This document shows positions 3,023 through 64,000 of a DNA stretch of 64,000 bases, piece after piece. The stretch is from contig CM075992.1 of assembly GCA_038087875.1 (NCBI GenBank), positions 11,472,001-11,536,000 of the forward strand. The letters run 5' to 3'. How positions within the stretch are numbered: the first letter of the stretch is position 1; every line of letters begins with the position of its first letter. Source of the DNA: Malacoraja senta. Its lineage: Eukaryota. Below the pieces are notes generated by a model. That model was not told where the DNA came from and ran no database searches. It saw only the letters and a program-made list of their open reading frames with translations. Made by a program: the position numbers and the translations under genes.

Positions 3023-3030
3023 AAAGACCA

Positions 3031-34849: not shown

Positions 34850-35470
34850 TCACAGCACTGCAAGTGTGGTCTCACCATAGACTTGTATCTTTATGTCCCA
34901 GAGTTAAGTTATATTAGCTATTCCTTGGACCACTTTCCCAACTGACCGAGATCCTTTTGTAAACTTACTATATATTTCTTCACTGCCCAGTATACCACAG
35001 ATTTTGGAGTTACCTGCATATTTACTCACCGCAATAACTACATGATATTCATATTGATAATGTAGATAAGGAACAACAATAGACCCATCACCAAACCCTC
35101 CCTGCAGCACTCCACTGGTCACAGTCCACAATCAAATAAATCAACACATCACAACTACCCTTTGACTAATTCCTCCAAGCCAATTTTGTCAGACAGTCAT
35201 AGAGTGATACAGCATGGAAACATGCCCTTTGGCCCAACTTGCCCATGCCGGCCAACACGTCCCTACTACACTAGTCCTACTTGCCCAAGTTTGGTCCATA
35301 TGCCTCCAAACCCATCCTATCCATGTACAGTATCTGTCTAACAACATCCAATTCGCTAGCTCACCTTGGATTCCTGACTAGTCTACCATGTGGGACCTTG
35401 TCAAAGACCTTCCAAAGTCCATATAGACAACATTGCCCTACCGCCATCAATCCTCTTGGTGACTTCATGA
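34850..35470 (-). mobile_element. Old CR1 RT fragments
   Basis: WTVTSGVLQG..SKYAGNSKI, plus a degenerate 'DFDKVPHGRL' stretch. Confidence 0.65.
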
Positions 35471-35849
35471 AAAAACTCAGATTAATTTCCCACATAAAAA
35501 GCCACGCTGGCTGTAGAACCATTTTGGAACAAACCTGCCGTAATGTCCTGTCTCACTGGTTTGTTTGATGCAACTGATGTCACTCACAAGTCATGGCACA
35601 GTTGGGTAAAAGCAATGTTATGAAAGTTAGAGTCAACAGACTTTCAAAGGCCATAAAAGATGTCAGAAAGGTTCATGCTGATCAAACAAGGTGGACGGAG
35701 GGAAGCTTATTAATTTCACAGTGGTAGACGGCTCAAATATCAGAAAGAATGTGAGGACAAACCGAGTCATCTAAGCTTTTGAATTGGGATAATCTTGTAG
35801 GTAAAAGGTGGGGGAATGGAATTGATATACGGCAGCACTGGAAGGAGAG

Positions 35850-38390
35850 GTGGGAGATTACAAGTTGAATCAGGAGTTAAAATTGGCATGTCGTAAAGGT
35901 AATGCTACAGTTGTTATGGGAGATTTCAACACGCAGGTAGACTGGGAAAATCTGGACCCCAAGAAAGGGAGTTTGTGGAGTGCCTCCGTGATGGATTCTT
36001 CGAGCAGCTTGTATTGGAGCCTACCAGGGAGAAGGCAATTCTGGATTTAGTGTTATGTAATGAACTGGAACTTGAGGATAAGGAAGTTGAGGTTAAGGAG
36101 CCATTAGGAGATAGTGACCATAACATTAGGAGATAGTGACCATAATATGGTCAAATTGAATCTACAATTGGAGAGGGAGAAGGGTAAATCGGAGGTGTCG
36201 GTTTTACAGTTGAATAAAGGGGGCTATGGAGCCATGAGGGAGAAGCTGGCCAAATTGACTGGAAAAATACCCTGGAAGGGATGACAGTGGAACAACAATG
36301 GCAGGTATTTCTGGGAATAATACAGACGGTGCAGGATCAGTTCATTCCAAGGGGAGTATGCGGCTAATGTGGCTGACCAGGGACGTCAGGGTCAGTATAA
36401 AAATAAAAGAGTAGCAACGTAGCACAGATGACCGGGAAGCAAGAGGATTGGGTAATGTCTAAAGAGCAACAGAAGAGAACTGAAATGGCAATACGGGGAG
36501 AAAAGATGAGATACGTAGGTAAGCTAGCCAAGAATATAAAGGAGGATAGTAAAAGCTTCTTTAGGTATGTAAAGAGGAACAAATTAGTTAAGATCAAAGT
36601 TGGACCCTTGAAGACTGAAAAAGGTGAATTTATTATGGGGAACAAGGAAAGGACAGATGAGTTGAACAGGCACTTTGGATCCATCTTCACTAAGGAGGAC
36701 ACAAACATTTTCTTGATATACTAGTGGCCAGAGGATCTGGGGTGACTGGAGGAACTGAAGGAAATCCACATTAGGCAGGAAATGGTGTTGGGTAGACTGA
36801 TGGGACTGAAGGCTGATAAATCTCCAGGGGCCTGCTAGTCTGCATCCCAGGGTACTTAAGAAAGTGGCTCTAGAAATCGTGGATGCATTGGTGATAATTT
36901 TCCACAGTTTTATAGATTCAGGATAAGTTCCTGTGGATAAGAGGATAGCTAATGTTATCCCACTTTTTAAGAAAGGCGGGAGAGAGAAAACAGGGAATTA
37001 TACACCAGTTAGCCTGACATCGGTGGTGGGGAAGATGCTGGAGTCAATTATAAAAGATGAAATAGCGGCACATTTGGATAGCAGTAACAGGATCGGTACA
37101 AGTTAGCATGGATTTCCGAAGGGGAAATCATGCTTAACTAATCTTCTGGAATTTTTTGAGGATGTAACTAGGAAAATGGACAAGGGAGAGCCAGTGGATG
37201 TAGTGTACCTGGACTTTCAGAAAGCATTTGATGAGGTCCCACATAGGAGATTAGTGGGCAAAGTTAGGGCACATGGTATTGGGGGTAGAGTGCTGACATG
37301 GATAGAAAATTGGTTGGCAGACAGGAAACAAAGAGTAGGGATTAACGGGTCCCTTTCAGAATGGCAGGCAGTGTCTAGTGGGGTACCGCAAGGCTCGGTG
37401 CTGGGACTGCAACTATTTACAATATACATCAATGATTTAGATGAAGGGATTCAAAGTAACATTAGCAAATTTGCAGATGACACAAAGCTGGGTGGCAGTG
37501 TGAACTGTGAGGAGGATGCTATGAGAATGCAGGGTGACTTGGACAGGTTGTGTGGGTGGGCAGATGCATGGCAGATGCAGTTTAATGTGAATAAATGTGA
37601 AGTTATCCACTTTGGTAGCAAAAACAGGAAGGCAGATTACTATCTAAATGGTGTCAAGTTGGGAAAAGGGAAAGTACAAAAGCATCTGGGGGTCCTTGTT
37701 CATCAGTCAATGAAAGTAAGCATGCAGGTACAGCAGGCAGTGAAGAAAGCGAACGGCATGTTGGCCTTTATAACAAGAGGAGTTGAATATAGGAGCAAAG
37801 AGGTCCTGCAGTTGTATAGGGCCCTAGTGAGACCACATCTGGAGTATTGTGTGCAGTTTTGGTCCTATAATCTGAGGAAGGACATTCTTCCTATTGAGGG
37901 AATGCAGCGCAGGTTTACAAGGTTAATTCCCGGGATGGTGGGACTGTCATAGGCTAAGAGAATGGAGCGGCTGGGCTTGTATACTCTGGAGTTTAGAAGG
38001 ATGAGAGGGGATCTTATTGAAACATATAAGATTATTAAGGGTTTGGACAAGCTAGAGGCAGGAAACATGTTCCCGATGTTGGGGGAGTCCAGAACCAGGG
38101 CCACAGTTTCAGAATAAGGCGTAAGCCATTTAGAACAGAGACGTGGAACTTTTTCTCACAGAGAGTTATGAGTCTGTGTAATTCTCTGCCTCAGAGGGCA
38201 GTGGAGGCCGTTTCTCTGGATACTTTCAATAGAGAGCTAGATAGGGCTCTTAAAGATATCGTAGTCAGGGGATATGGGGATAAGGCAGGAACGGGGATTG
38301 GGGATGATCAGCCATGATCACATTAAATGGTGGTGTTGGCTCGAAGGGCCTGCTCCTGCACCTATTGTCTATTGTCTGTTATCTATTGAT
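35850..38390 (+). mobile_element. 5'-truncated CR1 (unit A1)
   Basis: EN C-terminus (MGDFN) and RT (YLDFQKAFD, VPQGSVLG, FADDTK), with 3'UTR and (TCTATTG)n tail. Confidence 0.93.
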
Positions 38391-38530
38391 TTTCCAATAC
38401 TCCTCTATGTACCTGAAACCAGCTGCTATGGCCTTGCCTCTTCCCATTCATGCCAAGTTCAAAGCACAAGCTCCCCAGTGAGGCAAAACAGTAAAGTATT
38501 AAATACAAAAATATGAGTGTCAGCACCCAC

Positions 38531-38683
38531 CTTCGCAGACTCTGTTGTCTGTGAAGTTACGTTGTTTGCTCGGGTGGAAATATCCTGCCTTACAGGTACA
38601 GTAGTAGCTTCCCTCTGTCTTGTGACAATCAGTGTTGGGGCCACACAGTGATTGTGCGGAAGTTCCATTACATTCATCTTCAT
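38531..38683 (-). CDS. ADGRE5-like: EGF exon copy 1 (membrane-proximal): [51 protein letters not shown]
   Basis: 153 nt, phase 1-1. Acceptor ctcctccatccag, donor gtgggt. Six Cys and the D-x-D-E-C start. The long C5-C6 loop is typical of CD97/EMR EGF domains. Confidence 0.92.
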
Positions 38684-41600
38684 CTGGATGGAGGAGAAGA
38701 AAAAAGATCCATGCTTTAATAAAAACCAAGAAGGGATGAGTGGTCTGTTGCCCATGCCAGCCCTCACACTCCACAGCTGATCATTCCTGGTCCTATCGTG
38801 ACCTGTCCCTCCATCTCCACCATCCCTTGATTCAATCAACATTCACAATGTCAGCCTGGTGTGTCCTCAACAACTGTGGCTCCACAGTGAGGAACAGGAA
38901 GACTCACAACCTTCTCAGGAAAGGGACCTTTCCTCAGCCCAGGCCTAAACGGACAAAGCCGCTGCCTCTCTGCTCCTCTGTTACTCCCACATCTACATCA
39001 GCAAACTTAGATTCTTTCTGCTTTTTGTGAAGTGTGTTATGTCATTAGAAGGAGTCTTGCCTACCCCTGCTTCTCACAATACCCCTCACTCCTCCCCCCA
39101 CTTACCCCACCTGGCCATCACCACATCCCTCCCAGTGGACCCCCTCCCCCCTCCGTTGTTCCCATCCCCCACTACTCTTCCCATATTGATTCACTCTTCA
39201 CCTTGCTTTCCTATCAAATTCCAGAATCCGCAGCCTTTTCTTGTTTCCACATCACCTCCCGGTCCCTGTCTCTATTTCCACCCTTCCCTAACCCACCTCA
39301 CTCCATCTGCTAATTAACCCTTCCTCATCTGTATCCACCTATCACTTGCCACACTTGCCCCAAGCCCTCCCCCACTCTTTGCAGTGGCTATCTCCCTTCT
39401 ATTCTTTCTGCCCACATGAAGGTCAGAACCTGTCCATTATCCACCAGAGATGCTGCCTGACCCACTGACAACTCTCCTTTGTTGTCCCAGATCCCAGCAT
39501 CTGTGATCTCTCGTGCTTCCTAGACCACCTCATGTTTCACTCTCATTCAAATATTCATCATGAGAAATAGAACAATGTTCTTGGTCTTTTCACAACCGAA
39601 GGCTTTGGTGCGATCTGAAAGTAAGGGCGGTTAGCTTTGTCCAAGCTTGCATCGCTGATCCACTGGCTCTTGAGGCAATGCGATTCCGGAATGAGCAGTC
39701 TTCCCTTGATAGGGTTAGAGACACCTGGTGATTGAAGGTGGGGAGACAGGGAAACTTGAGGCAGAGTGAGGTACCCTGACCTTGCCTCAGCTTTCCCCAT
39801 CTTGGCATCATGGATACATGTTGAACCATCCGTACCATCCGCCATTCCGGAACTGCAGATACTGGCTTATAGAAAAAGACTCAAAGTGCTGGAGTAAATC
39901 AGCAGACAAAGCAGCATCACTAGAGAACAGGTACAGGTGACATTTCGGGTTGTCGTGGAGGCGGGTGGGGGAAGAAAGCTGGAAGAGAAGTCAGGGCAGG
40001 ACAAAGCCTGGCAAGTGATATGTAGATACAAGTGGGGAAGGGGCTGATTAACTCCTGTGGATGTTGAAGAAACAGCAGCAAAGAGAAGCAGGAAAAAGCA
40101 CTGATTGGCTCTAGCTCGAGTGGGAGGAGAGTTAGAAGTGAGTCAGAGGGGGAAAACAGTTGAAAAAGAGAGGCAAAGCACAGGCAGACTTATACCAGAG
40201 CTCCCGTGGATTTTGAAGAAACAGCAGCAAAGAGAAGCAGGAAAAAGCACTGATTGGCTCTAGCCCGAGTGGGAGGAGAGTTAGAAGTGAGTCAGAGGGG
40301 GAAAACAGTTTAAAACTGAGGAATTTGGTTTGTAAATTGGTAAATTAGGCAATTTATCAGTCAATATAAGCTAGGCGGCTCTTAGGGAGCGGCCTTGTGA
40401 GGGAAGTGTGAGTCTTTGGCGAGGAGGCTGAGGAGAGGAGGCTACACTTAAAGCTGGAGAGGACGGAACGCGGTGAACACATGTCGGGGCAGATGAGACA
40501 GTGTGAGTCTTGCAGAATATGGGAGCCCAGGGACACAGATGGAGCCTCTGGCTGCTACAACTGTAGCAAGTTCGTCCAACTTCAGCTCCTAAAGAACGTG
40601 TTGTGGCCCTGGAGAAGCAGCTGGATTGCCTCGGGGCCATCTGGGAAAACGAGTGTTTCCTGGACAGGAAATACAGTGAGGTAGTCACGCCGAGGTTACG
40701 GGAAGAACCAAGGTGTGTGACGGAGAGAAAGGGTGGAAATCGTGGAGTGCAGAAGACTCGGGTGGCTGTGCCTAGTGAAAACAGGAATGCCCTCTTGGGA
40801 ACTGTCTGGGGAGACGATGTTTCCAGTCCGAGCGGTGGACACGTCGGTGGCTCCAATCCTGGAGATGGGGCTCGACCGGCGAGACTGACGTCGGGTAGAG
40901 CACTAGTGGTGGGTGACTCCATTGTCCGAGGGATGGACAGGAGATTCTGTGGCGGTAGACGAGATGCGAGGATGATCTGTTGCCTCCCTGGTGCCAGGGT
41001 TCAGGATGTCCCGAGCCGAATTCTGAACATCCTCGAGAGAGAAGGTGAACAGCCGGCAGTAGTTGTGCATGTAGGCATAAACGACATTGGGAAGAAGTGG
41101 AAGGAGGTTCTCCAACATGACTTCAGAGAGTTGGGAAGTAGACTGAAATGCCGGACTTCTAGGGTGGTTATCTCTGAATTGCTTCCAGTACCTCGTGCTA
41201 GTGAGGACAGGAACAGGGAGATAGGGGATCTGAATGTGTGGCTGAGGGGCTGGAGCAGGGAGCAAGGATTTAGATTTATAGACCACTGGGATCTCTTCTG
41301 GGGTAGGGGTGACCTGTACAAAAGGGACTGGTTACACCTTAACTGGAGGGGGACTGACATTCTGGCAGGCAGGTTTGCTAGGGCTACACGTGTGGGTTTA
41401 AACTAAATAGGGGGGGGGGAGGGATTGACAAATTGGGAGAATAAAGATGGAGTTGAAGGGGAAGTGGCTGCAAGAAAAATTACAAAAGATTCTTAAATTA
41501 ATGGGAAGGAAAGGTTGAGAATGGACAACAGAGTAAGGTCAGGGCCAATTGCGAGCGGTGCGAGGGGGGAAGTGAATACGGAGGTCAAAGTGCTGTATAT

Positions 41601-43377
41601 GAATGCGCAAAGTATAAGGAATAAAGTGGAACGAGCTTGAAGCTCAGTTAGAAACTGGCAAGTATGATGTTGTGGGAATTACTGAGACATGGCTGCAAGA
41701 GGGCCAGGGCTGGGAACTGAATATTCAAGTATATACCTCCTATCGAAAAGACAGAAAGGTGGGCAGAGGGGGTGGGGATGCCCAGTGGGTGAGGAATGAA
41801 ATTCAGTCCCTTGCAAGGGGTGATATGGAAACAGGAGATGTGGAGTCATTATGGATAGAACTAAGGAATTGGAAGGGTAAAAAGACCCTAATGGGACTAA
41901 TCTACAGGCCCCCAAACAGTAGCCTGGACATAGGGCGCAAGTTGAATCGGGAGTTAAAATTGGCATGTATTAAAAGTAATGCTGTGTTTGTTATGGGAGA
42001 TTTCAACATGCAGGTAGACTGGGAAAATCAGGTTGGTACTGGACCCCAAGGAAGGGGCTTTGTAGAGTGCCTTAGTGATGGATTCTTTGAACAGCTTGTA
42101 TTGGAGCCTACCAGGGAGAAGGCAATTCTGGATTTAGTGTTAAGTAATGAATCGGATTTGATAAAGGACCTCGAGGTTAATTAGCCATTAGGAGGTAGTG
42201 ACCATAACATGGTCAGGTTTAATCTCCAATTGGAGAGGGAGAAGAGTAGATCGGAGGTGTCAGTGTTGCAGTTGAATAAAGGGGACTATGGGGCCATGAG
42301 GGAGGAGCTGGCCAAAGTTGACTGGAAAGATACACTGGCAGGGATGACAGTGGAACAAAAATGGCAGGTGTTTTGTGAGAAAAATGTGAGTCTTTGGTGA
42401 GGAGGCTGAGGAGAGAAGGCTACGCATAAAGCTGGAGAGGACGGAACGCGGTGAACACGTGTCGGGGCAGATGAGACAGTGTGAGTCTTGCAGAATATGG
42501 GAGCCCAGGGACACAGATGGAGCCTCTGGCTGTTACATCTGTGGCAAGTTCGTCCAGATACAACTCCTAAAGGACTGTGTTGGGGCACTGGAGAAGCATC
42601 TGGATTACCTCCGGGCCATCCGGGAAAACGAGAGTTGACTGGACAGGACCTACAGTGAGGTAGTCACGTTGAGGTTTCGGGAAGAACCATGGTGTGTGAC
42701 GGAGAGAAAGGGTGGAAATCGTGGAGTACAGAAGATTCAGGTGGTTGTGCCAAATGAAAACAGGTACGCCCTCTTGGGAACTGTCCGGGAAGACGATGTT
42801 TCCAGTCCAATCATGAGTTAAAATTGGCAAGTAGTAAAAGTAATGCTGTGGTTGTTATGGGAGATTTCAACATGCAGGTAGACTGGGAAAATCAGGTTGG
42901 TACTGGACCCCAAGAAAAGGGACTTTGTAGAGTGCCTCAGTGATGGATTGTTTGAACAGCTTGTATTGGAACCTACCAGGGAGAAGGCAATTCTGGATTT
43001 AGTGTTAAGTAATGAACCGGATTTGATAAAGGACCTTGAGGTTAATGAGCCATTAGGAGGCAGTGACCATAACATGGTCAGGTTTAATCTACAATTGGAG
43101 AAGGAGAAGAGTAGATCGGAGCTATGGGGCCATGAGGGAGGAGCTGGCCAAAGTTGACTGGAAAGATACACTAGCAGGGATGACAGTGGAACAAAAATGG
43201 CAGGTGTTTTTAGGAATAATACAGATGGTGCAGGATCAGTTCATTCCTAGGAGGAAAAAAGATTCTAAGGGGAGAAAGGTACGACCATGGCTGACAAGGG
43301 ACGTCAGGGACAGTATAAAAATTAAAGCGAAAAAGTTCAAAGTAGCAAAGGTGAGCGGGAAGCAAGAGGATTGGGTA

Positions 43378-43719
43378 ATAATAATAATAATAATGGATGG
43401 GATTTATATAGCGCCTTTCTAATACTCAAGGCGCTTTACATCGCATTATTCATTCACTCCTCAGTCACACTCGGTGGTGGTGAGCTACTTCTGTAGCCAC
43501 AGCTGCCCTGAGGCAGACTGACAGAAGCGTGGCAGCTAATCTGCGCCTACGGCCCCTCCGACCACCACCAAACACTCACACACATTCACACACATTCACA
43601 CGCAGGCAAAGGTGGGTGAAGTGTCTTGCCCAAGGACACAACAACAGTATGCACTCCAAGCGGGATTCGAACCGGCTACCTTCTGGTTGCCAGCCGAACA
43701 CTTAGCCCATTGCGCCATC
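43378..43719 (-). mobile_element. Full-length tRNA-derived SINE with L2-type tail and (ATT)n
   Basis: Head GATGGCGCAATGGGCTAAG..GGTTCGAATCCC, body TCCTTGGGCAAGACACTT, tail GTAAAGCGCCTTGAG..AAAGGCGCTATATAAAT. Absent from the paralogous site at ~60238. Confidence 0.88.
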
Positions 43720-44019
43720 TGTTTAAAGAACAACAGAAGATAACCAAAAAGACTTCCGGTGGGGGCGACATGTTGGAGTAGTCGCACTTTTCCACGCTCC
43801 CGACCTTTTCACCTCCAACTTATATTACAGCTCAGTCTAAGTTTTTTAACCACCCACAAACATTTAAACATCATTGTCAGTACCTCTCTACGCTGTAAAG
43901 ATGCCAAACAAAGGAAAGAAAGCGGAGCAAAAGACAGAAGACCCGACGGCCACGCAAGCAGCCATGATAACAGAACATAAGGTATTGTTACTGGCAGAAT
44001 TCAACACTGCGTTACCAAA

Positions 44020-44706
44020 TTGGAAACGAAGCTGGACAATATCCAGATCACTATGTTAGACCACCAACACCGTCTCTCGTCATTAGAGTCTTTTGCCGCT
44101 ACCACGAGCCAAGATATACGAGCTATAACGTTAATGTTAACTACGGTGACCGAAGAGAACGCCAAGCTAAAGGCTAAGCTTATCGGCCTGGAAGGCAGGA
44201 GTCGCCGAAATAACATAAGGATAGTGGGTCTTCCCGAGAATATCGAGGGCTCCCAAACAACAGCGTTTTTCTCTCAACTTCTGCTCGAGACTCTTGGCGA
44301 ACACATACTGGAATCGGCCCCGGAGCTAGACCGAGCCCACCGTACGCTAACACCCAAGCCAAGCCCTGGTGAGAAACCCAGAGCAGTTGTGATCTGCTTC
44401 CATAGATACCAGACCCGTGAGTTGGTGGTACGTGAGGCTCGGAGACAGAGAGGTAAGCTGAAATACAAAGATACCCCGTTCCACATTTTCGAAGACTACT
44501 GTCCCGAGATAGTTGAACAACGCTCCGCGTACCGAGACGTTATGAAGGAGCTGTATAACCTGGGTTTCAAACCCTCCCTTCATTATCCAGCCAAGCTGTT
44601 CATAATGTCCGGGGAGGGAAAGAGGCGACGACTAACATCTCCCGAGGACGCTCAGGATTTCATCTCATCTTACCGTCGACGCAGACCGGGACCCACAGAT
44701 GACTGA
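44020..44706 (+). CDS. L1 ORF1p (coiled coil/RRM/CTD); N-terminus from 43901 is frameshifted
   Basis: RSRRNNIRIVGLPE, ELDRAHR, YPAKL motifs. Confidence 0.85.
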   Translation: METKLDNIQITMLDHQHRLSSLESFAATTSQDIRAITLMLTTVTEENAKLKAKLIGLEGRSRRNNIRIVGLPENIEGSQTTAFFSQLLLETLGEHILESAPELDRAHRTLTPKPSPGEKPRAVVICFHRYQTRELVVREARRQRGKLKYKDTPFHIFEDYCPEIVEQRSAYRDVMKELYNLGFKPSLHYPAKLFIMSGEGKRRRLTSPEDAQDFISSYRRRRPGPTDD

Positions 44707-45878
44707 CTTCGTTCAGTACGTCTATATTCGAGTGGCACAGGGGCCCGGTTAATCTATGGTTACATGGACTAACTTTAGCTTGACTGTTCCTAATAACTAG
44801 CTATGGTTAGCGTTCAGCATTGCTGATTATACTAGACCCCGGTTTCAAAATGTATGAGGCTGGTAAGAAATCACCAGGATTTGTGAATATTTTATATCAA
44901 CTTTTTCTTATATTGTCTATGTGTAATTGTGCTTGAGGGGTCCCTCACCAGCATATGCTATAAAACTGGGCTCAAAGGACCCACTTTGTGGTTTGTGATT
45001 TGGTCTCTGCCTTCCTGTTCTTAGCAGCTGGCCGCTAATGCTGTCAGCACCTGGCTAGTTTGCTTATACTAATCTTCATAACGAACTGTCTGGGGCTGAT
45101 AAGAGCTCATTACAGCCAGGGCTGTGTTATACAAATCTTATCTTATACCTTTTTTGTTTAACAAAACATAATTGATGCCTTTAGCGCTGTGCTTTAATCC
45201 AACAGCCCAGTTTGTAATTTGCTAACCTTTCCAACGCCAACTCTCTCTTTATACTTTGTCAATTTTAAGACATACTATGTAACACCAAAGGAAGTTATTC
45301 CGGATCCACTTACACGTTAGCCGGTTTATTTAGTATCACCATTTTGTTAATATGCTTTGTCTTATTGTGACTATCATCATTGCTATTACTATTAGTGTTA
45401 GCAATGGTACTGGCAGTGCAACCATTATGGTTATTATTTTAACTTTGCATTTATCAATGTATGTTTATCTACTTTATTCCTACTCTATTTTTCAAATTAT
45501 TATCATCATCATCATTATTACTATTACTACACTTATTTTACTTCATGTTACCTTATCGACACTGAGTGACCGTCGCTTTGGGAAGCGGTGATATAGGGAG
45601 TTAAGATTGGATATCTCCATGCGGAAGCGAGGACAACGCACCTTGGTGCAATGGGCACTTAAGGTTCAGTTGAGACATGGGGGAATCTCAGGTCTGGAGA
45701 CTCAGGTTTGAAAGATGGTTAAATGATATGTGTTCCACTTGTTTGCTGTGTGTGTATGTTTTTGTTCTTGTTCCCCCCCCCCCCCTCCCCCTCCACATCC
45801 CCACTCTCGGCAGCTGGCTTCGATGCGCTCTTCCGTCTCGTTTTGCAGAAGTACAGCGCATTACCCATATAGCTAAAT

Positions 45879-48800: not shown

Positions 48801-49650
48801 AAAACCTATATAAGGATGGCATCTTCTCATCTTTCGTGGAGCTCTCGTCTAACTACAACCTCCCAAACTCCCACCTTTTTCGGTTTTTCCAGATTAGGGA
48901 TTTTGTGAAGAAGACATTTCCCTACTTCCCAAATCGCCCTCCTGAAACCCTGACTGATATCATCTTAGCCTTAGACCCCAATCGGAAGAAATGCATCTCT
49001 ATTTTGTATAATTTGCTAGGGTCGGTTTTATTGAAACCTCATACCTCATTAAAAGCTGCGTGGGAGGGAGAGCTGAATACGCAATTAACAGACCAGCAAT
49101 GGGACTCTGCCTTGGATTTGATCCACTCTTCTTCCATATGCGCTCGTCATGGCCTAATCCAATGCAAAGTCCTTTACAAAGTCCACTACACAAATGCAAG
49201 ATTAGCTAGAATGTACCCAGCTGTTAATGACACCTGTACATATGTAGTCAATCTCCTGCCAACCATAGCCACATGTTTTGGTCTTGCCCTAAGCTAGCAG
49301 CCTTTTGGAGGAGTGCTTTTGAATTGATAAGCAGAGCTTACGACCAGACTATTCTTCCAAATCCAATGTCAGCTATTTTCGGTACCCCTCCCAATACTAA
49401 CCTCTCTGTTGCGGTGAAACGGGTCCTAGCTTTTACAACCTTGTTAGCCCGGAGACTGATCTTGCTTAGTTGGAGGCTTACCTGTCCCCCGACACACGCC
49501 CGTTGGATTAAGGAGGTGCTTTACAATCTGAAACTTGAAAAACTTAGGTTCTCTCTCAAAGGCTCTACCAAGACATTCCTAGATACATGGAACCCTTTCT
49601 TTGAACTGGTTAACTCTCTTACCTTGTCCCCGGACTCGGAAGAGGACTGA
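45879..49650 (+). pseudogene. L1 ORF2p (APE endonuclease + RT + C-terminus), lightly disrupted
   Basis: 551-aa ORF ending in TGA at 47532-47534, continued by ORFs at 47538, 47668, 47933 and 49273. Confidence 0.9.
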
Positions 49651-52248: not shown

Positions 52249-52400
52249 CTTTGCAGCCTCTGTATTCTGTGAAGTTACGTTGTTTGCTCGGTGGAAATAT
52301 CCTGCCTTACAGGTACAGTAGTAGTTTCCCACTGTGTTGTGACAATCAGTGTTGTTGTCACACGGTGTTTGTGCAGAAGTTCCATTACATTCATCCTCAT
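52249..52400 (-). pseudogene. ADGRE5-like: EGF exon copy 2, 152 nt with a 1-nt deletion: [37 protein letters not shown]/..TEYRGCK
   Basis: Splice sites are intact. CAC-CG-AGC replaces CAC-CCG-AGC. The deletion may be a homopolymer assembly error. Confidence 0.8.
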
Positions 52401-53739
52401 CTGGATAGAGGAGGAGAAAAAAGATCCATGCTTTAATAAAAACCAAGAAGGGATGAGTGGTCTGTTGCCCATGCCAGCCCTCACACTCCACAGCTGATAA
52501 TTCCTGGTCCTATCGTGACCTGTCCCTCCATCTCCACCATCCCTTGATTCAATCAACATTCACAATGTCAGCCTGGTGTGTCCTCAACAACTGTGGCTCC
52601 ACAGTGAGGAACAGGAAGACTCACAACCTTCTGAACTAAGGGACCTTTCCTCAGCCCAGCCCTAAACGGACAAAGCCGCTGCCTCTCTGCTCCTCTGTTA
52701 CTCCCACATCTACATCAGCAAACTTAGATTCTTTCTGCTTTTTGTGAAGTGTGTTATGTCATTACAAGGAGTCTTGCCTACCCCTCACTCCTCCCCCCAC
52801 TTACCCCACCTGGCCATCACCACACATCCCTCCCAGTGGACCCCCTCTCCCCTCCGTTGTTCCCATCCCCCACTACTCTTCCCATATTGATTCACTCTTC
52901 ACCTTGCTTTCCTATCAAATTCCAGAATCTGCAGCCTTTTCTTGTTTCCACATCACCTCCCGGTCCCTGTCTCTATCTCCACCCTTCCCTGCCCCATCTC
53001 ACTCCATCTGCTAATTAACCCTTCCTCATCTGTATCCACCTATCACTTTCCACACTTGCCCCAAGCCCTCTCCCACTCTTTGCAGTGGCTATCTCCCTTC
53101 TATTCTTTCTGCCCACATGAAGGTCAGAACCTGTCCATTTTCCACCAGAGATGCTGCCTGACCCACTGACAACTCTCCTTTTTTGTGCCAGATTCCAAAC
53201 CTGTCCTATCCATGTACAGTATCTGTCTAACAACATCCAATTCACCAGCTCACCTTGGATTCCTGACTAGTCTACCATGTGGGACATTGTCAAAGTCCAT
53301 CCAAAGTCCATATAAACAACATTGCCCTACCCCAATCAATCCTCTTAGTGACTTCATGAAAAACTCAGATTCATTTCCCACATAAAAAGCCACGCTGGCT
53401 GTAGAACATGGAATTTTGGAACAAACCTGCCATAATGTCCAGTCTGACTGGTTTATTTGATGCAACTGATGTCAATCACAAGTCATGGCACAGTTGGGTA
53501 AAAGCAATGTTATGAAAGTTAGAGTCAACGGACTTTCAAAGGCCATAAATTATGTCAGAAATGTTCATGTTGATCAAACAAGGTGGACGGAGGGAAGCTT
53601 ATTAATTTCACACTGGTAGACGGCTCAAATATCAGAAAGAATGTGAGGAAAAACCGAGATCTAAGCTTTTGAATTGGAATCATCTTGTAGCTAAAAGGTG
53701 GGGGAATGTAATTGATATACGGCAGCATTGTAAGGAGAG

Positions 53740-56290
53740 GTGGGAGGCTGCAAGTTGAATCAGGAGCTAAAATTGGCATGTTGTAAAGGTAATGCTACCG
53801 TTGTTATGGGAGATTTCAACATGCCGGTAGACTGGGAAAATCAGGTTGGTACTGGACCCCAAGAAAGGGAGTTTGTGGAGTGCCTCTGTGATGGATTCTT
53901 AGAGCAGCTTGTATTGGAGCCTACCAGGGAGAAGGCAATTCTGGATTTAATGTTGTGTAATGAACCGGATTTGATAAAGGAACTTGAGGTTAAGGAGCCA
54001 TTAGGAGGTAGTGACCATAATATGGTCAAGTTTAATCTACAATTGGAGAGGGAAAAGGGTAAATTGGAGGTGTCGGTGTTACAATTGAATACAGAGGGCT
54101 ATGGAGCCATGAGGGAGAAGCTGGCCAAATTGACTGGAAAAATACATGAGAAGGGATGACAGTGGAACAACAATGGCAGGTATTTCTGGGAATAATACAG
54201 AAGTTGCAGGATCAGTTCATTCCAAAGAGGGAGAAAGATTCCAAGGGGAGTAAGGGGCGACTGTGGCTGACCAGGGACGTCAGGGACAGTATAAAAATAA
54301 AAGAGAAGAAATACAACGTAGCATAGATGACCGGGAAGCAAGAGGATTGGGTAATGTCTAAAGAGCAACAGAAGAGAACTAATAAGGCAATACGGGGAGA
54401 AAAGATGAGGTACGAAGGTAAGCTAGCCAAGAATATAAAGGAGGATAGTAAAAGCTTCTTTAGGTATGTAAAGAGGAAAAAATTAGTTTAAGACCAAAGT
54501 TGGACCCTTGAAGACTGAAAAAGGTGAATTTATTATGGGGAACAAGGAAATGGCAGATGAGTCGAACAGGTACTTTGGATCCGTATTCACTAAGGAGGAC
54601 ACAAACACTTCCTGATATACTAGTGGCCAGAGGATCTGGGTGACAGAGGAACTGAAGGAAATCCACATTAAGCAGGAAATGGTGTTGGGTAGATTGATGG
54701 GACTGAAGGCTGATAAATCCCCAGGGCCTCATGGTCTGCATCCCAGGGTACTGAAGGAAGTGGCTTTAGAAATCGTGGATGCATTGGTGATAATTTTCCA
54801 GAGTTTTATAGATTCAGGATCTGTTCCTGTGGGTAAGAGGGTAGCTAATGTTATCCCATTTTTTAAGAAAGGCGGGGAGAAGTGAAACAGGGAATTATAG
54901 ACCAATTAGCCTGACATCGGTGGTGGGGAAGATGCTGGAGTCATTTATAAAAGATGAAATAGCGGCACATTTGGATAGCAGTAACAGGATCGGTCCGAGT
55001 CAGCATGGATTTACGAAGGGGAAATCGTGCTTGATTAATCTTCTGGAATTTTTTGAGGATGTAACCAGGAAAATGGACAAGGGAGAGCCAGTGGATGTAG
55101 TGTACCTGCATTTTCAGAAAGCATTTGATAAGGTCCCACATAGGAGATTATTAGGGGAAAATTAGGGCACAAGGTATTGGGGTAGAGTGCTGACATGGAT
55201 AGAAAATTGGTTGGCAGACAGGAAACAAAGAGTAGGGATTAACGGGTCCCTTTCAGAATGGCAGGCAGTGACTAGTCGGGTGCCGCAATGCTCAGTGCTG
55301 GGAACGCACCTATTTACAATATACATCAATGATTTAGATGAAGGGATTCAAAGTAACATTAGCAAATTTTCAGATGGCACGAAGCTGGGTGGCAGTGTGA
55401 ACTGTGAGGAGGATGCTATGAGAATGCAGGGCGACTTGGACAGGTTGAGTGTGTGGGCAGATGCATGGCAGATGCAGTTTAATGTGGATAAATGTGGTTA
55501 TCCACTGTTAGCAAAAACAGGAAGGCAGATTACTATCTAAATGGTATCAAGTTGGAAAAGGGGAAGTACAACATGATCTGGGGGTCCTTGTTCATCAGTC
55601 AATGGAAGTAAGCATGCAGGTACAGCAGGCAGTGAAGAAAGTGAATGGCATGTTGGCCTTTATAACAAAAGGAGTTGAGTATAGGAGCAAAGAGGTCCTT
55701 CTGCAGTTGTACAGAGCCCTAGTGAGACCACATCTGGAGTATTGTGTGCAATTTTGGTCCCTAATTTGAGGAAGGACATTCTGGTTATTGAGGGAGTTCA
55801 GCGTAGGTTTACAAGGTTAATTCCCAGGATGGCGGGACTGTCATATGCTGAGAGAATGGAGCGGCTGGGCTTGTATACTCTGGAGATTAGAAGGATGAGA
55901 GGATATCTTATTGAAACATATAAGATTATTAAGAGTTTGGACACTCTAGAGGCAGGAAACATGTTCCTGATGTTGGGGGAGTCCAGAACCAGGGACCACA
56001 GTTTCAGAATAAGGGGTAAACCATTTCGAACGGAAACGAGGAAACACTTTTCTCACAGAGAGTTGGTGAGTCTGTGGATTCTCTGCCTCAGAGGGCGGTG
56101 AATGCCGGTTCTTTTGATACTTTCAAGAGAGAGCTAGATAGGGTCTTAAAGATAGCAGAGTCAGGGGATATGGAGAGAAGGCAGGAACGGGTATTGATTG
56201 GGGATGATCAGCCATGATCACATTAAATGGCGGTGCTGGCTCGAAGGGCTGAATGGCCTATTCCTGCACCTATTGCCTATTGTCTATTGA
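53740..56290 (+). mobile_element. 5'-truncated CR1 (unit A2)
   Basis: Same truncation point and upstream flank as the 35850 copy. Confidence 0.93.
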
Positions 56291-56431: not shown

Positions 56432-56584
56432 CTTTGCAGCCTCTGTTGTCTGTGAAGTTACGTTGTTTGCTCAGGTGGAAATATCCTGCCTTACAGGTAC
56501 AGTAGTAGCTTCCCACTGTGTTGTGACAATCAGTGTTGTTGCCACACAGTGTTTGTGCAGAAGTTCCATTACATTCATCCTCAT
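56432..56584 (-). CDS. ADGRE5-like: EGF exon copy 3: [51 protein letters not shown]
   Basis: 153 nt, phase 1-1, intact AG/GT. Full calcium-binding EGF consensus, including C-x-N-x4-Y-x-C-x-C. Confidence 0.92.
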
Positions 56585-57884: not shown

Positions 57885-60800
57885 ACTCCCGTGGATTTTG
57901 TAGAAACAGCAACAAAGAGAAGCAGGAAAAAGCACTGATTGGCTCTAGCTCGAGTGGGAGGAGAGTTAGAAGTGAGTCAGAGGGGGAAAACAGTTTAAAA
58001 CTGAGGAATTTGGTTTGTAAATTGGTAAATTTGGCAATTTATCAGTCAATATAAGCAAGGCGGCTCTTAGGGAGCGGCCTTGTGAGGCAAGTGCCTTGTG
58101 AGAAAAATGTGAGTCTTTGGATCGAGAGACTTTGGCGAGGAGGCTGAGGAGAGGAGGCTACGCATAAAGGTGGAGAGGACGGAACGCGGTGAACACATGT
58201 CGGGGCAGATGAGACATTGTGAGGCTTGCAGAATAAGGGAGCCCAGGGACACAGATGGAGCCTCTGGCTGCTACACCTGTGGCAAGTTCATCCAGATTCA
58301 GTTCCTAAAGGACCGTGTTGGGGCACTGGAGAAACAGCTGCATTACCTCCGGGCCCTCCAGGAAAATGAGAGTTTCCTGGACAGGACATACAGTGAGGTA
58401 GTCACGTCGAGGTTACGGGAAGAACCAAGGTGTGTGACGAAGAGAAAGGGTGGAAATCGTGGAGTGCAGAAGACTCAGGTGGCTGTGCCTAATGAAAACA
58501 GGAACGCCCTCTTGGGAACTGTCTGGGGAGACGATGTTTCCAGTCCGAGCGGCGGACACGTCGGTGGCTCCAATCCTGGAGATGGGACTCGACCGGCGAG
58601 ACCGACGTCAGGCAGAGCACTAGTGGTGGGTGACTCCATTGTCCGAGGGATGGACAGGAGATTCTGTGGTGGTAGACGAGATGCGAGGATTGTCTGTTGC
58701 CTCCCTGGTTCCAGGGTTCAGGACGTCACGAGCCAAATTCTGAACATCCTCGAGAGAGAGAAGGTGAACAGCCGGCAGTAGTTGTGCACGTAGGCACAAA
58801 CGACATTGGGAAGGAGGTTCTCCAACATGACTTCAGAGAGTTGGGAAGAAGACTGAAAGGCTGGACTTCTACGGTGGTTATCTCTGGATTGCTTCCAGTA
58901 CCTCGTGCTAGTGAGCACAGGAACAGGGAGATAGGGGATCTGAATGTGTGGCTGAGGGGCTGGAGCAGGGAGCAAGGATTTAGATTTATAGACCACTGGG
59001 ATCTCTTCTGGGGTAGAGGTGACCTGTACAAAAGGGACGGGTTACACCTCAACTGGAGGGGGACCGACATTCTGGCAGGCAGGTTTGCTAGGGCTACACG
59101 TGTGGGTTTAAACTAAATAGTGGGGGGGAGGGGTTGACATATTGGGAATATAAAGAGGGAGTTGAAGGGGAAGTGGCTACAGGAAAAATTACAAAAGATT
59201 TTCGAATTAATGGGAAGGAAAGCTTGAGAATGGACAACAGAGTAAGGTCAGGGCCAATTGCGAGCGGTGCGAGGGGGGAAGTGAATACGGAGGTCAAAGT
59301 GCTGTATATGAATGCGTGAAGTATAAGGAATAAAGTGGAAACGCTTGAAGCTCAGTTAGAAATTGGAAGTATGATGTTGTGGGAATTACTGAGACATGGC
59401 TGCAAGAGGGCCAGGGCTGGGAACTGAATATTCAAGGGTATACCTCCTATCGAAAAGACAGAACGGTGGGCAGAGGGGGTGTGGTTGCCCTGTTGGTGAG
59501 GAATGAAATTCAGTCCCTTGCAAAGGTTGACATTGAAACAGGAGATGTGGAGTCATTATGGATAGAACTAAGGAATTGTAAGGGTAAAAATACCCTAATG
59601 GGACTAATCTACAGGCCCCCAAACAGTAGCCTGGACATAGGGCGCAAGTTGAATCAGGAGTTAAAATTGGCATGTAGTAAAAGTAATGCTGTGGTTGTTA
59701 TGGGAGATTTCAACATGCAGGTAGACTGGGAAAATCAGGTTAGTACTGGACCCCAAGAAAGGGACTTTGTAGAGTGCCTTAGTGATGGAATGTTTGAACA
59801 GCTTGTATTGGAGCCTACCAGGGAGAAGGCAATTCTGGATTTAGTGTTAAGTAATGAACCAGATTTGATAAAGGACCTCGAGGTTAATGAGCCATTAGGA
59901 GGCAGTGACCATAACATGGTCAGGTTTAATCTACAATTGGAGAGGGAGAAGAGTAGATCGGAGGTATCAGTGTTGCAGTTGAATAAAGGGGGCTATGGGG
60001 CCATGAGGGAGGAGCTGGCCAAAGTTGACTGGAAAGATACACTGGCAGGGATGACAGTGGAACAAAAATGGCAGGTGTTTTTAGGAATAATACAGAAGGT
60101 GCAGGGTCAGTTCATTCCAAAAGATTCTAGGGGGAGAAAGAGACGACCATGGCTGACAAGGGGACGTCAAGGAGAGTATAAAAATTAAAGCGAAAAAGTA
60201 CAAAGTACAAAGGTGAGCGGGAAGCAAGAGGATTGTGTAATGTTTAAAGAACAACAGAAGATAACTAAAAAGACAATACGGGGAGAAAAGATGAGGTACG
60301 AAGGTAAGCTAGCCAAGAATATAAAGCAGGATAGTAAAAGCTTCTTTAGGTATGTGAAGAGGAAAAAATTAGTTAAGACCAAAGTTGGACCCTTGAAGAC
60401 CGAAAAAGGTGAATTTATTATGGGGAACAAGGAAATGGCAGATGAACTGGTACTTTGTATCTGTCTTCACCAAGGAGGATACAAACAATCTTCCTGATAT
60501 AGTAGTGGCCAGAGGATCTGGGGTGACAGAGGAACTGAAGGAAATCCACATTAGGCAGGAAATGGTGTTGGATAGACCGATGGGACTGAAGGCTGATCAA
60601 TCCCCAGGGCCTGATGGTCTGCATCCCAGAGTACTTATTTTCCCAGGGTGATAATTTTCCAATGTTCTATAGACTCAGGATCAGTTCCTGTAGATTGGAG
60701 GGTAGCTAATGTTATCCCACTTTTTAAGAATGGCGGGAGAGAGAAAACAGGGAATTATAGACCAGTTAGCCTGACATCGGTGGTGGGTAAGATGTGGGAG

Positions 60801-61810
60801 TCAATTATAAAAGATGAAATAACGTCACATTTGGATAGCAGTAACAGGATCGGTCCGAGTCAGCATGGATTTACGAAGGAGAAATCATGCTTAACTAATC
60901 TTCTGGAATTTTTTGAGGATGTAACTAGGAAAATGGACAAGGGAGCCAGTGGATGAAGTGTACCTGGACTTTCAGAAAGCATTTGACAAGGTCCCACATA
61001 GGAGATTAGTGGGCAAAATTAGGGCACACAGTATTGGGGCTAGAGTGCTGACGGATAGAAAATTGGTTGGCAGACACGAAACAGAGTAGGGATTAACGGG
61101 GTCCCTTTCAGAATGGGAGACAGTGACTAGTGGGGTGCAGCAAGGCTCGGTGCTGGGACCACAGCTATGTACAATATACATCAATGATTTAGATGAAGGG
61201 ATTCAAAGTAACATTAGCAAATTTGCAGGTGACACAAAGCTTGGTGGCAGTGTGAACTGTGAGGAGGATGCTATGAGAATGCAGGGTGACTTGGACAGGT
61301 TGAGTGTGTGGGCAGATGCATGGCAGATGCAGTTTAATGTTGATAAATGTGAAGTTATCCACACTGCTAGCAAAAACAGGAAGGCAGATTACTATCTAAA
61401 TGGTGTCAAGTTGGGAAAAGGAAGTACAAAAGGATCTGCGGGTCCTTGTTCATCAGTCAATGAAAGTAAGCATGGTACAGCAGGCAGTGAAGAAAGCGAA
61501 TGGGATGTTGGCCTTTATAGCAAGAGGAGTTGAATATAGGAGCAAAGAGGTCCTTCTGCAGTTGAATAGGGCCCTAGTGAGAGCACACCTGGAGTATAGA
61601 GGGCGGTGGAGGCAGGTTCTCTGGATGCTTTCAAGAGAGAGCTAGATAGGGCTCTTAAACATAGCGGAGTCAGGGGATGTGGGGTGAAGGCAAGAACGGG
61701 GTACTGATTGGGGATGATCAGCCATGATCACATTAAAATGCGGTGCTGGCGCGAAGGGCCGAATGGCCTATTCCTGCACCTATTACCTATTGTCTATTGT
61801 CTATTGATTT
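57885..61810 (+). mobile_element. Near full-length CR1 (unit B2)
   Basis: ORF1 at 58170-59116, EN at 59379-60188, RT to ~61600. Shares private lesions with B1. Confidence 0.92.
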
Positions 61811-61948: not shown

Positions 61949-62100
61949 CTTTGCAGCCTCTTTTGTCTGTGAAGTTACGTTGTTTGCTCGGTGGAAATAT
62001 CCTGCCTTACAGGTACAGTAGTAGCTTCCCACTGTGTTGTGACAATCAGTGATGTTGCCACACAGTGCTTGTGCAGAAGTTCCATTGCATTCATCCTCAT
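61949..62100 (-). pseudogene. ADGRE5-like: EGF exon copy 4, 152 nt with the same 1-nt deletion as copy 2: [37 protein letters not shown]/..TDKRGCK
   Basis: Splice sites are intact. The plus strand reads TTTGCTCGGTGG, as in copy 2, versus TTTGCTCGGGTGG in copy 1. Confidence 0.8.
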
Positions 62101-62740
62101 CTGGATGGAGGAGGAGAAAAAAGATCCATGCTTTAATCAAAACCAAGAAGGGATGAGTGGTCTGTTGCCCATGCTAGCCCTCACACTCCACAGCTGATCA
62201 TTCCTGGTCCTATCGTGACCTGTCCCTCCATCTCCACCATCCCTTGATTCAATCAACATTCACAATGTCAGCTTGGTGTGTCCTCAACAACTGTGGCTCC
62301 ACAGTGAGGAACAGGAAGACTCACAACCTTCTGAGCAAAGGGACCTTTCCTCAGCCCAGGCCTAAACGGACAAAGCCGCTGCCTCTCTACTCCTCTGTTA
62401 CTCCTACATCTACATCAGCAATTGTTTGTGAAGTCTGTTATGTCATTACAAGGAGTCTTGCCTACCCCTGCTTCTCACAATACCCCTCACTCCTCCTCCC
62501 ACCTACCCCACCTTGCCATCACCACACATCCCTCCCAGTGGACCCCCTCCCCCCTCCGTTGTTCCCATCCCCCACTACTCTTCCCATATTGATTCACCTT
62601 TCGCCTTGCTTTCCTATCAAATTCTAGAATCTGCAGCCTTTTCTTGTTTCCACTTCACCTCCTGTCTCTATCTCCCCCCTTCCCTGCCACACCTCACTCC
62701 TTCTGCTAATTAACCCTTCCTCATCTGTAACTACCTATCA

Positions 62741-63775
62741 TAGGTATGTTACAATACTTACCTTCAGCGGCGCTGCAATTCTGCCACTGGCCGTGTGCGC
62801 GATTTTTGCGCCTTTGAGGGGTGGGGGCGGGGTTAAAACACGGGTTTATCCTACCTTGTCCTGTATTTTATTTCGTTGGAGTGCCAGCTTTTGCTGAAAA
62901 ATCATTCCGACGGGCGTTTTGTGTATTTTTTATTTTTATTCGATCGACTAGTTCAGCGCTGGAATTATTTTAAAATCAGCTTCGAAAGCCGTCAACGCCG
63001 ACGGATTTCACGCACGGGACAGATAAACAAAAGCAGTTTATTTTATGTATAAAAGTGCTTCTTAAGAGGCCTTTAATTCACATTTTGTAATGCGAAACGG
63101 TGATTCTTTTCCCCGAACTAACGGCAGAATTTTTCATGCCGATACGGGGTTAAATTCACCGCAAATCAACGTTCCAAATGATCGCGTTCCAGAAAATCCC
63201 ACTCGCAAGATGATTTAAATGCCCATTAATTTACAGGTATTAAACATTAAATTTCTTCCATTTGGCCTGTAAATCCATGACAATGAGATTTAAAAATAAT
63301 GTTATATTGTGAGTTCTTGTGTGAATGTTATTTGGACACTTAAGCTAGTTAAAAATGTTAATCTATTCTTAAGAAATTGATAGATGTTTAGATCTAGTAA
63401 TTGAATTTTGTAATTAGCTACAATTAGGTAACTAGCTAATTATATGCTTTAATTTCATGTCATCTAAGTAAGATTGTTTCATATTTGTTTCAGAATGCTT
63501 CAATCTATAATAACTGAAAATCTCTTTTAGTTCTCTCGATTTTTAAGAAAGTTATGGGCTTTTGACTGTCCTCGATCACAGCTTTTGTGTTAAGTCAATG
63601 GAAAAGCAATAGGGAACAAGATGCTAATTTCCGAGTATGAAAATGGCCATAATTTTTTTAATACTGAAGATATGAAAGTGAATTAGGTGTCAAATTAAAC
63701 GTCTTTTTCTGCTTTATCTGATGGGATAAATTACAGACTTGATTTTTAAAATCTCAACATTTTGTAACATTGCTA
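62741..63775. mobile_element. Non-autonomous DNA transposon with TAG..CTA ends and a 7-bp TSD (hAT-related)
   Basis: TIR TAGGTATGTTACAA versus reverse-complemented right end TAGCAATGTTACAA. TSD CCTATCA (62734-62740) / CCTGTCA (63776-63782). The empty site CCTATCACTT is seen in the paralogous units (~39338, 53039, 57168). Confidence 0.85.
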
Positions 63776-64000
63776 CCTGTCACTTTCCACACTTGCTCCA
63801 AGCCCTCCCCCACTCTTTGCAGTGACTATCTCCCTTCTATTCTTTCTGCCCACATGAAGGTCAGAACCTGTCCATTTTCCACCAGAGATGCTGCCTGACC
63901 CACTGACAATTCTCCTTTGTTGTGCCAGATCCCAGCATCTGCGATCTCTCGTGCCTCCTAGACTACCTCATGATTCACTCTCATTCAAATATTCATCACA

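What the first reader, a model, noticed from the sequence alone, without database searches (positions are those of the whole stretch)
35315..64000. Recent expansion of an EGF-exon array in a CD97/ADGRE-like receptor via duplication of intron+exon cassettes
Seen: four ~93-97% identical EGF exons, each in a multi-kb cassette (CR1 LINE + exon + flank). The array runs to the window edge and may continue. Known: ADGRE receptors have symmetric phase-1 EGF exons, and CD97/EMR2 isoforms differ in EGF number, which alters ligand binding. Inference: this lineage is lengthening the receptor ectodomain by unequal crossing-over, probably seeded by the intronic CR1 copies. That could create a copy-number-variable, alternatively spliced immune adhesion receptor.
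Basis: partly seen in the sequence, partly recalled or inferred. Interest (0 to 1): 0.8.

Follow-up and report, generated by a model that had tools for sequence, protein, structure and literature searches.

The report
Skate receptor EGF-exon array, half broken
Four near-identical EGF exons, two of them frameshifted, lie in tandem in a CD97-like adhesion-receptor gene, likely of a skate; they likely arose long ago through one crossover between CR1 retroelements and one later block duplication, and database gene models suggest that rajid skates and devil rays each replaced their mixed EGF chain with copies of this one exon.

Summary
The array is real. Four calcium-binding EGF exons lie on the minus strand, 90.8–97.4% identical, each beside a CR1 LINE, upstream of three intact linker/GAIN-region exons that match skate ADGRE-like receptors. 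No GPS or 7TM exon is in the window.

(1) Exons B and D share a 1-nt deletion that shifts the frame and removes Cys6, so only 2 of 4 are symmetric and in frame.
(2) Only the first duplication looks CR1-mediated: a hybrid CR1 with a sharp divergence step near 36.9 kb. The second copied a two-exon block at a 4-bp junction outside CR1.
(3) It is not very recent or private. Flanks differ by 3–6%, contigs from three coded organisms bridge the same junction, and Amblyraja (9 copies) and Leucoraja carry the same repeat.

Across database models, sharks and several rays keep a mixed EGF chain, whereas rajids and Mobula separately carry runs of the first full EGF, likely the CD97-EGF2 equivalent. This looks like birth-and-death turnover rather than simple lengthening. 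Expression, splicing and copy-number variation are untested. Known mechanisms, one neat convergent pattern.

The parts
61949..62100 (-). EGF exon D, 152 nt, frameshifted by a 1-nt deletion, Cys6 lost; splice sites intact
56432..56584 (-). EGF exon C, 153 nt, phase 1-1, in frame, six cysteines
52249..52400 (-). EGF exon B, 152 nt, same 1-nt deletion as D
38531..38683 (-). EGF exon A, 153 nt, in frame; the most divergent copy
28170..28207 (-). 38-nt linker exon (phase 1 to 0), matching the EGF-to-stalk linker of skate ADGRE-like models
26827..27004 (-). 178-nt stalk/GAIN-region exon, 90% identical in protein to Leucoraja XP_055486231.1; no Pfam hit on its own
24979..25098 (-). 120-nt GAIN-region exon, 95% identical in protein to the same model; last exon of the gene found in the window
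35861..38380 (+). 5'-truncated CR1-type LINE beside exon A; inferred crossover homologous to about 36940-37070
40052..52100 (+). Hybrid CR1 of cassette B (5' UTR and ORF1 from a second element, 3' end shared with A), with internal duplications and a nested SINE-like and L1-like insertion
43754..50010 (+). L1-like LINE inserted in the cassette-B CR1, flanked by a direct repeat of about 27 bp; absent from D (L1 label from ORF layout, recalled; Pfam gave only the endonuclease)
53194..53197 (.). Junction of the A+B to C+D block duplication; 4-bp overlap, outside CR1, between two short repeats
35305..35860 (.). Non-CR1 left flank, copied at 53194-53749 (6.0% diverged)
53750..56290 (+). 5'-truncated CR1 of cassette C (A-type)
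57886..61800 (+). Hybrid CR1 of cassette D (B-type), with an internal deletion near its 3' end
62741..63774 (.). About 1-kb insertion private to cassette D, with a near-perfect 8-bp flanking repeat and short imperfect terminal inverted repeats (likely a hAT-type MITE; label recalled)

Best explanation
The window holds four tandem calcium-binding EGF exons, two of them frameshifted, of an ADGRE/CD97-like adhesion-receptor gene, likely of a rajid skate; the array likely arose by one unequal crossover between two same-direction CR1 elements and a later microhomology-type duplication of the two-exon block, and full-length receptor would need the two broken exons to be skipped. Steps: (1, inferred from a shown divergence step) a single exon lay between a 5'-truncated CR1 and a full-length CR1; they misaligned and crossed over inside ORF2, giving exons A and B with a hybrid CR1 between them. 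(2, inferred) The B lineage lost one base in the exon. (3, junction shown, mechanism inferred) The A+B block was copied head to tail as C+D. (4, shown) Further elements inserted into B and D. (5, inferred) Exon copies exchanged short tracts. (6, predicted) Transcripts that skip B and D encode a membrane receptor with at least two EGF copies; transcripts that include them meet a premature stop and would be degraded or give a short secreted EGF chain. The array behaves as birth-and-death turnover of one ligand-contacting module, not as steady lengthening.
For: Hybrid CR1: sites that split A,C from B,D number 59 of 985 columns left of position 36940 and 18 of 2082 right of it (2dLL 66; maximum 15.6 in 200 permutations). 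A/C versus B/D differ by 10.1-11.7% left of the step and 4.8-6.6% right of it, while A-C stays near 6%. B and D carry a CR1 5' end with ORF1, and A and C are truncated at the same point. Block duplication: alignments tile A+B onto C+D and meet at 53194-53197. Frameshift: B and D share it, together with several other shared indels right of the crossover. In-silico splicing gave no stop for C-A and for A alone, and a premature stop for all 6 tested combinations containing B or D. Gene identity: downstream exons are 90% and 95% identical to Leucoraja XP_055486231.1, one model with three such repeats plus stalk and 7TM; the best PDB matches of exon C are CD97 and EMR2. Age: contigs bridge the junction in 4 of 4 runs laid, from 3 coded organisms. 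EGF-number isoforms exist in Mobula (6, 6, 5, 4) and Pristis (3, 2, 1) database models. Tract exchange: 48 of 153 informative site pairs among 18 skate repeats show all four combinations.
Against: No GPS, 7TM or signal-peptide exon lies in the window; 25 kb after the last exon has no match and contains a 200-N gap, so the link to a 7TM is by homology only. The listed contigs over the deletion site show the in-frame form (all depth in 3 runs, 717 of 892 in the fourth; 14 indel rows were not shown), which is unexpected if the deletion predates a junction these organisms share. Exon B groups with in-frame Amblyraja repeats (99/87 support, 37 residues only). B-D divergence in CR1 (3.1-3.4%) is lower than A-C (5.8-6.4%) although one event should have made both, so later conversion or rate differences are needed. 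The junction contigs are short (91-207 nt) and begin in high-copy repeats. The distance test for tract exchange was significant at only 1 of 3 window sizes (p 0.018, 0.076, 0.70). There are no RNA data.
Confidence: 0.7

Rival explanations
1. The array and its history are as described, but the deletion in B and D is an assembly error in a short C run, so all four exons are functional and the ectodomain carries at least four copies.
For: Listed contigs of four runs show the in-frame form at that site. The deletion falls in a 3-base homopolymer. Related Amblyraja and Leucoraja repeats are in frame in database models.
Against: The same base is missing in two copies, exactly the pair that shares other indels and substitutions. 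No single copy shows a clear excess of private 1-bp losses (4, 1, 0, 1 for C, B, A, D). The laid runs are probably other individuals or species (best holder 0.55 of words), and contigs drop rarer variants.
Confidence: 0.12
2. This gene copy is a decaying or truncated paralogue: it lacks the GPS/7TM part, and the EGF exons drift neutrally or give only a secreted fragment.
For: No downstream exon within 25 kb. Half of the EGF exons are broken. Pairwise pN/pS in the exons is near or above 1 in most pairs, on few changes. Skates have several paralogues (Rhinoraja five models, Leucoraja three). The Amblyraja model ends after the same stalk exon.
Against: The three downstream exons are open, with canonical splice sites and 90-95% identity to a full-length Leucoraja model. 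Amblyraja has a separate GPS+7TM model on a contig of the same length, which suggests a split annotation. The intron is full of large transposons and an assembly gap.
Confidence: 0.12
3. The tandem units are falsely joined haplotypes or an assembly duplication.
For: Repeat-rich region; no whole genome or raw reads of the individual were available.
Against: Copies differ by 3-6% in non-repeat flanks and by private kilobase insertions. The block junction is bridged by contigs in four runs. Amblyraja and Leucoraja models carry the same array.
Confidence: 0.03

Closest known systems
ADGRE5/CD97 and ADGRE2/EMR2 (EGF-TM7 adhesion GPCRs)
   Same: Calcium-binding EGF modules on single exons ahead of a stalk/GAIN region; best PDB matches of exon C are CD97 and EMR2. 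CD97 isoforms have 3-5 EGFs, and this changes CD55 binding (PMC8191316, passages).
   Different: Mammalian EGF1-5 are distinct domains, whereas here one exon is repeated at 91-97% identity and two copies are broken. One-to-one orthology with a mammalian ADGRE is not expected (PMC8584163, passages).
Skate database models: Amblyraja XP_032906753.1 ('LTBP2-like', 9 repeats) with XP_032906737.1 (GPS+7TM); Leucoraja XP_055486231.1 and XP_055486856.1
   Same: Same 51-residue repeat, linker and stalk exons.
   Different: Different repeat numbers and mosaics of motifs; all repeats are in frame in those models; their genomic DNA could not be examined.
Mobula ADGRE-like models (XP_072104499-502.1, XP_062892115.1)
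   Same: A run of near-identical copies of the first full EGF with the downstream EGF types absent; isoforms with 6, 6, 5 and 4 copies.
   Different: Mobula repeats group with the single first EGF of Pristis and Hypanus (98/96), apart from the skate repeats (99/98), so the amplification was independent.
LINE-LINE non-allelic homologous recombination
   Same: Directly oriented LINE pairs mediate copy-number changes with breakpoints inside the elements (PMC4344489, abstract); here a hybrid CR1 with an internal divergence step.
   Different: CR1 rather than human LINE-1, an old fixed event, and it explains only one of the two duplications.
ADGRL4/ELTD1
   Same: EGF-GAIN-7TM architecture with variable EGF number (PMC6626334, passages).
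   Different: The 7TM of the Leucoraja homologue scores 227 bits against ADGRL4 and 297-308 against ADGRE5.

Membership tests
ADGRE (EGF-TM7) adhesion GPCR | N-terminal calcium-binding EGF modules | tested here: met
   EGF_CA at or above cut-off for 4 of 4 exons; best PDB hits CD97 and EMR2
ADGRE (EGF-TM7) adhesion GPCR | Stalk/GAIN region after the EGFs | tested here: met
   Three exons match the stalk of ADGRE-like models at 90-95% for two and about 60-90% for the short linker; Pfam gave no hit for the 60-residue exon alone
ADGRE (EGF-TM7) adhesion GPCR | GPS motif and secretin-type 7TM in the same gene | tested here: inconclusive
   Not in the window; present in homologous models (Pfam on P0004 and P0030; P0048)
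ADGRE (EGF-TM7) adhesion GPCR | 7TM closer to ADGRE than to ADGRL4 or latrophilins | tested here: inconclusive
   Tested on the Leucoraja homologue only: over the 7TM, ADGRE5 297-308 bits, ADGRL2 281, ADGRE1 277, ADGRL3 263-274, ADGRL4 227; longer ADGRL3 chains score higher overall (323, 310). No tree with outgroups was built
ADGRE (EGF-TM7) adhesion GPCR | Symmetric phase-1 EGF exons | tested here: inconclusive
   Met by A and C (153 nt), not met by B and D (152 nt)
ADGRE (EGF-TM7) adhesion GPCR | Leukocyte expression, autoproteolysis, ligand binding | not testable with these tools
   No expression or binding data
LINE-LINE unequal crossover product | Hybrid element with a switch in ancestry and the same orientation as both parents | tested here: met
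   Change point near 36940; 10-12% against 5-7% divergence
LINE-LINE unequal crossover product | All duplication breakpoints inside the LINE | tested here: not met
   The A+B to C+D junction lies outside CR1
LTBP/fibrillin-type EGF protein | TB (8-Cys) domains and no GAIN/7TM | tested here: not met
   No TB family listed for P0001; stalk exons match ADGRE-like models

The most novel reading that the evidence does not exclude
Rajid skates and devil rays independently discarded the mixed EGF chain of their CD97-like receptor and replaced it with a run of copies of the module that matches CD97 EGF2, the main ligand-contact module in mammals. The copies are reshuffled by tract exchange and exon skipping into a variable ligand-binding repertoire under selection, and the frameshifted copies with intact splice sites act as poison exons or yield secreted decoys.
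Probability: 0.15. Interest if true: 0.7.

Novelty: new variant of a known kind. Interest (0 to 1): 0.4.

Why it matters
It is a clean, readable case of how a receptor gains and loses domain exons: one retroelement crossover, one block duplication, a frameshift and tract exchange, all in 29 kb. The comparative pattern (two batoid lineages each carrying runs of the same first EGF) points to a testable ligand-avidity or arms-race question for an immune-type receptor in cartilaginous fish. It also flags a likely split and mis-named database model in Amblyraja. It is not a new kind of system: variable EGF number in ADGRE receptors and LINE-mediated duplication are established, and near-identical EGF pairs also occur in shark and teleost ADGRE-like models.

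Tried and rejected
No whole genome was held for the window, so the adjacent sequence and copy number could not be read. The sequencing-run search listed no RNA holder; this says nothing about expression. Contig depths (for example exon 347, left flank 144, junction 65 in X1) hint at several exon copies per junction copy, but the tool states that they are not copy numbers, so they were not used. tblastn and local alignment for GPS/7TM exons in 1-24978 found nothing (best scores 31-44 against self-scores 278-857), and no signal-peptide exon or remnant of the downstream EGF types was found. The search of 1.84 billion representatives returned generic EGF-rich proteins and no new close repeat beyond P0002 among the 150 listed of 1783. 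Three look-ups of earlier findings were empty. Alternative in-frame donors 4 and 7 nt into the intron exist after B and D; by eye they match the donor consensus worse and would not restore Cys6, and they were not scored. Pure B-D gene conversion as the cause of the CR1 step was rejected because it cannot double A-B divergence on one side only. Positive selection on the exons was not shown: too few changes. The LTBP2 label was rejected. A preprint on the terminal complement pathway (10.1101/2022.04.21.489004, abstract only) was irrelevant. No fold or complex job was sent.
Full report
OBSERVATION. Self-BLAST of the window shows a duplicated region from 35305 to the right edge. A search with one copy finds exactly four EGF exons, on the minus strand at 38683-38531 (A), 52400-52249 (B), 56584-56432 (C) and 62100-61949 (D). 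All four reach the Pfam EGF_CA cut-off and have intact acceptor and donor sites. Identity over the 6 pairs is 90.8-97.4%. A and C are 153 nt and phase 1-1. B and D are 152 nt: they share a 1-nt deletion at codon 37, which shifts the last 14 codons and removes the sixth cysteine. Of 8 exon combinations spliced in silico to the downstream exons, only C-A and A alone stay open; all 6 containing B or D hit a premature stop.

THE GENE. Exon C found two proteins: an Amblyraja model with nine such repeats and a Leucoraja fragment with two. Three further exons lie downstream on the same strand: 28207-28170, 27004-26827 and 25098-24979. The latter two are 90% and 95% identical to Leucoraja XP_055486231.1, a single model with three repeats, stalk and 7TM. 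The organism is therefore likely a rajid skate (inference from protein similarity). No GPS or 7TM exon lies in 1-24978, which is filled with transposons and a 200-N gap, and no signal-peptide exon was found. In the PDB, exon C matches CD97 and EMR2 best. Over the 7TM, the Leucoraja homologue scores highest against ADGRE5 (297-308 bits; ADGRL2 281, ADGRE1 277, ADGRL4 227), though longer ADGRL3 chains score higher overall. [quoted passage not shown]

HOW THE ARRAY AROSE. Each exon sits beside a plus-strand CR1-type LINE with the same 3' end. The A and C elements are truncated at the same 5' point; the B and D elements have a 5' UTR and esterase ORF1. In a four-way alignment with the large insertions left out, sites splitting A,C from B,D number 59 of 985 columns left of position 36940 and 18 of 2082 right of it (2dLL 66, against a maximum of 15.6 in 200 permutations). 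A/C versus B/D differ by 10.1-11.7% on the left and 4.8-6.6% on the right, while A-C stays at 6.4% and 5.8%. LINE-LINE recombination of this kind is established in human genomes (PMC4344489, abstract). The second step is different: block A+B (35305-53197) recurs as C+D (53194-63934) and includes non-CR1 flank. The junction has a 4-bp overlap and joins two unrelated short repeats. Later events are private: a SINE-like and an L1-like insertion in B and a 1-kb element in D. After D the sequence continues into the spacer that precedes a CR1 5' end, so the array may or may not continue. One loose end: B-D divergence in CR1 (3.1-3.4%) is lower than A-C, and private changes in the exon flanks are uneven (A 6, B 12, C 21, D 24 in 869 columns), so conversion or rate variation is also at work.

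AGE. Block-duplicated neutral DNA differs by 5.1-6.0%, and exon flanks by 2.6-6.0%. At the epaulette-shark rate of 7e-10 per base per generation (95% interval 1.4-14.1e-10; PMC10587355, passages) this is tens of millions of generations. That rate may not fit skates, but the event is not population-recent. Contigs from 4 of 4 runs laid (3 coded organisms) bridge the junction, with 2-14 other letters in 91-207 nt; these contigs are short and start in high-copy repeats. Against my reading, the listed contigs over the deletion site show the in-frame form, and exon B groups with in-frame Amblyraja repeats in a protein tree (54 columns, bootstrap not settled). The deletion nevertheless follows the same B,D pattern as several other shared indels, so I take it as likely real, perhaps later than the block duplication and spread by conversion.

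COMPARISON. Of 21 chondrichthyan models typed by cysteine spacing, 12 have a first long-spacer EGF followed by short-spacer types (sharks, Pristis, one Rhinoraja paralogue). Five have only repeats of the first type: Amblyraja 9, Leucoraja 2 and 3, Mobula 6 and 4 matched. Three have one matched EGF (two of these with a degenerate second), and one has none matched. In the tree of 61 EGF rows, all 16 skate rows form one supported group (99/98), and the 9 Mobula rows group with the single first EGF of Pristis and Hypanus (98/96). The amplification therefore likely happened twice. These are automated gene models, not checked transcripts. Mobula models have 6, 6, 5 and 4 copies and Pristis models 3, 2 and 1 EGFs, which suggests that these exons are skippable. 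Near-identical EGF pairs (96-100%) also occur in 2 shark models and in 5 of 22 further models, all five teleost, so internal EGF duplication itself is ordinary in this family. The repeated exon scores best, marginally, against CD97 EGF2 (24.5 bits against 23.1, 21.8 and 14.0), and a stingray two-domain fragment aligns best to EGF2+3 (37.3 against 25.2). The Leucoraja two-repeat fragment aligns best to EGF4+5, so this assignment is only likely. In the CD97-CD55 structure, EGF2 forms the largest interface, and EGF number changes affinity (PMC8191316, passages). Among 18 skate repeats, 48 of 153 informative site pairs show all four combinations, with a distance effect at 1 of 3 window sizes. Exon A has 8 private changes in 152 columns against 6 in 869 flanking columns (p 3e-4) and sits nearest the Rhinoraja EGF in the tree (98/79). 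Both observations fit tract exchange between copies. Conversion among EMR2, CD97 and EMR3 is reported in mammals (cited in PMC2720389, passages; the original paper was not read).

HOW IT LIKELY WORKS. Shown: the exons, the frameshift, the hybrid CR1 and the junction. Inferred: the order of events, and that the gene continues to a 7TM. Predicted: full-length receptor is made by skipping B and D and carries at least two copies of the module, while inclusion gives degraded or short secreted products. Since the shark models already carry 3-6 EGFs, this is replacement and turnover more than lengthening.

NOVELTY. I found no paper on this array or on EGF number in chondrichthyan ADGRE genes in searches (listings only; the library lacks most subscription papers, and no supplements were read). 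Searches were background searches. The mechanisms are known and the arrays already sit in database models, one of them mis-named. New here are the breakpoint anatomy, the broken copies and the apparent convergence. Verdict: new variant of a known kind, interest 0.4.

Noticed in passing
window 1-24978: At least 25 kb follows the last GAIN-region exon with no further exon; it is packed with transposons and holds a 200-N gap at 7549-7748.
   Followed up: partly
P0001 and P0030 (Amblyraja XP_032906753.1, XP_032906737.1): A nine-EGF model named 'LTBP2-like' ends by reading into the intron after the stalk exon, and a GPS+7TM model lies on a contig of the same length; likely one gene split in two and mis-named.
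   Followed up: partly
window 38531-38683: Exon A has far more private changes than its flanks (8 of 152 against 6 of 869) and shares several residues with the Rhinoraja EGF, although C should be its direct copy.
   Followed up: partly
window 32527-34296, minus strand: Open 590-residue frame with RT and a weak GIY-YIG hit, a Penelope-like element (label recalled); related decayed copies at about 11.9-15.0 kb and 27.6-28.1 kb.
   Followed up: no
window 18934-24300 and 1300-4500: Two related elements with RT and a frame resembling a tyrosine recombinase (DIRS-like; label and motif recalled); the first is interrupted by other repeats.
   Followed up: no
window 16063-18552, plus strand: Open 830-residue RT frame of an AT-rich L1-like element ending in a long A run near 18933-18980.
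   Followed up: no
window 43380-43722 and 6719-6949: Two copies of a short interspersed element, about 95% alike, each starting with an AAT run and each inserted in or next to a CR1.
   Followed up: partly
window 40052-40315, 42373-43210, 51355-52100: The cassette-B CR1 has three internal duplications (5' UTR, ORF1 start/ORF2 start, 3' end) that D lacks.
   Followed up: no
window 7035-7217: 72-bp tandem repeat, 2.6 copies, 97% matched, near the assembly gap.
   Followed up: no
P0004, P0006, P0007, P0052, P0053; P0002, P0025, P0048: Rhinoraja has five and Leucoraja three models of this receptor, so whole-gene duplication accompanies exon duplication in skates.
   Followed up: no
P0036 (Salmo trutta CD97 model): The whole N-terminal EGF+stalk block occurs twice, almost identically; possibly two genes fused in one model.
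   Followed up: no
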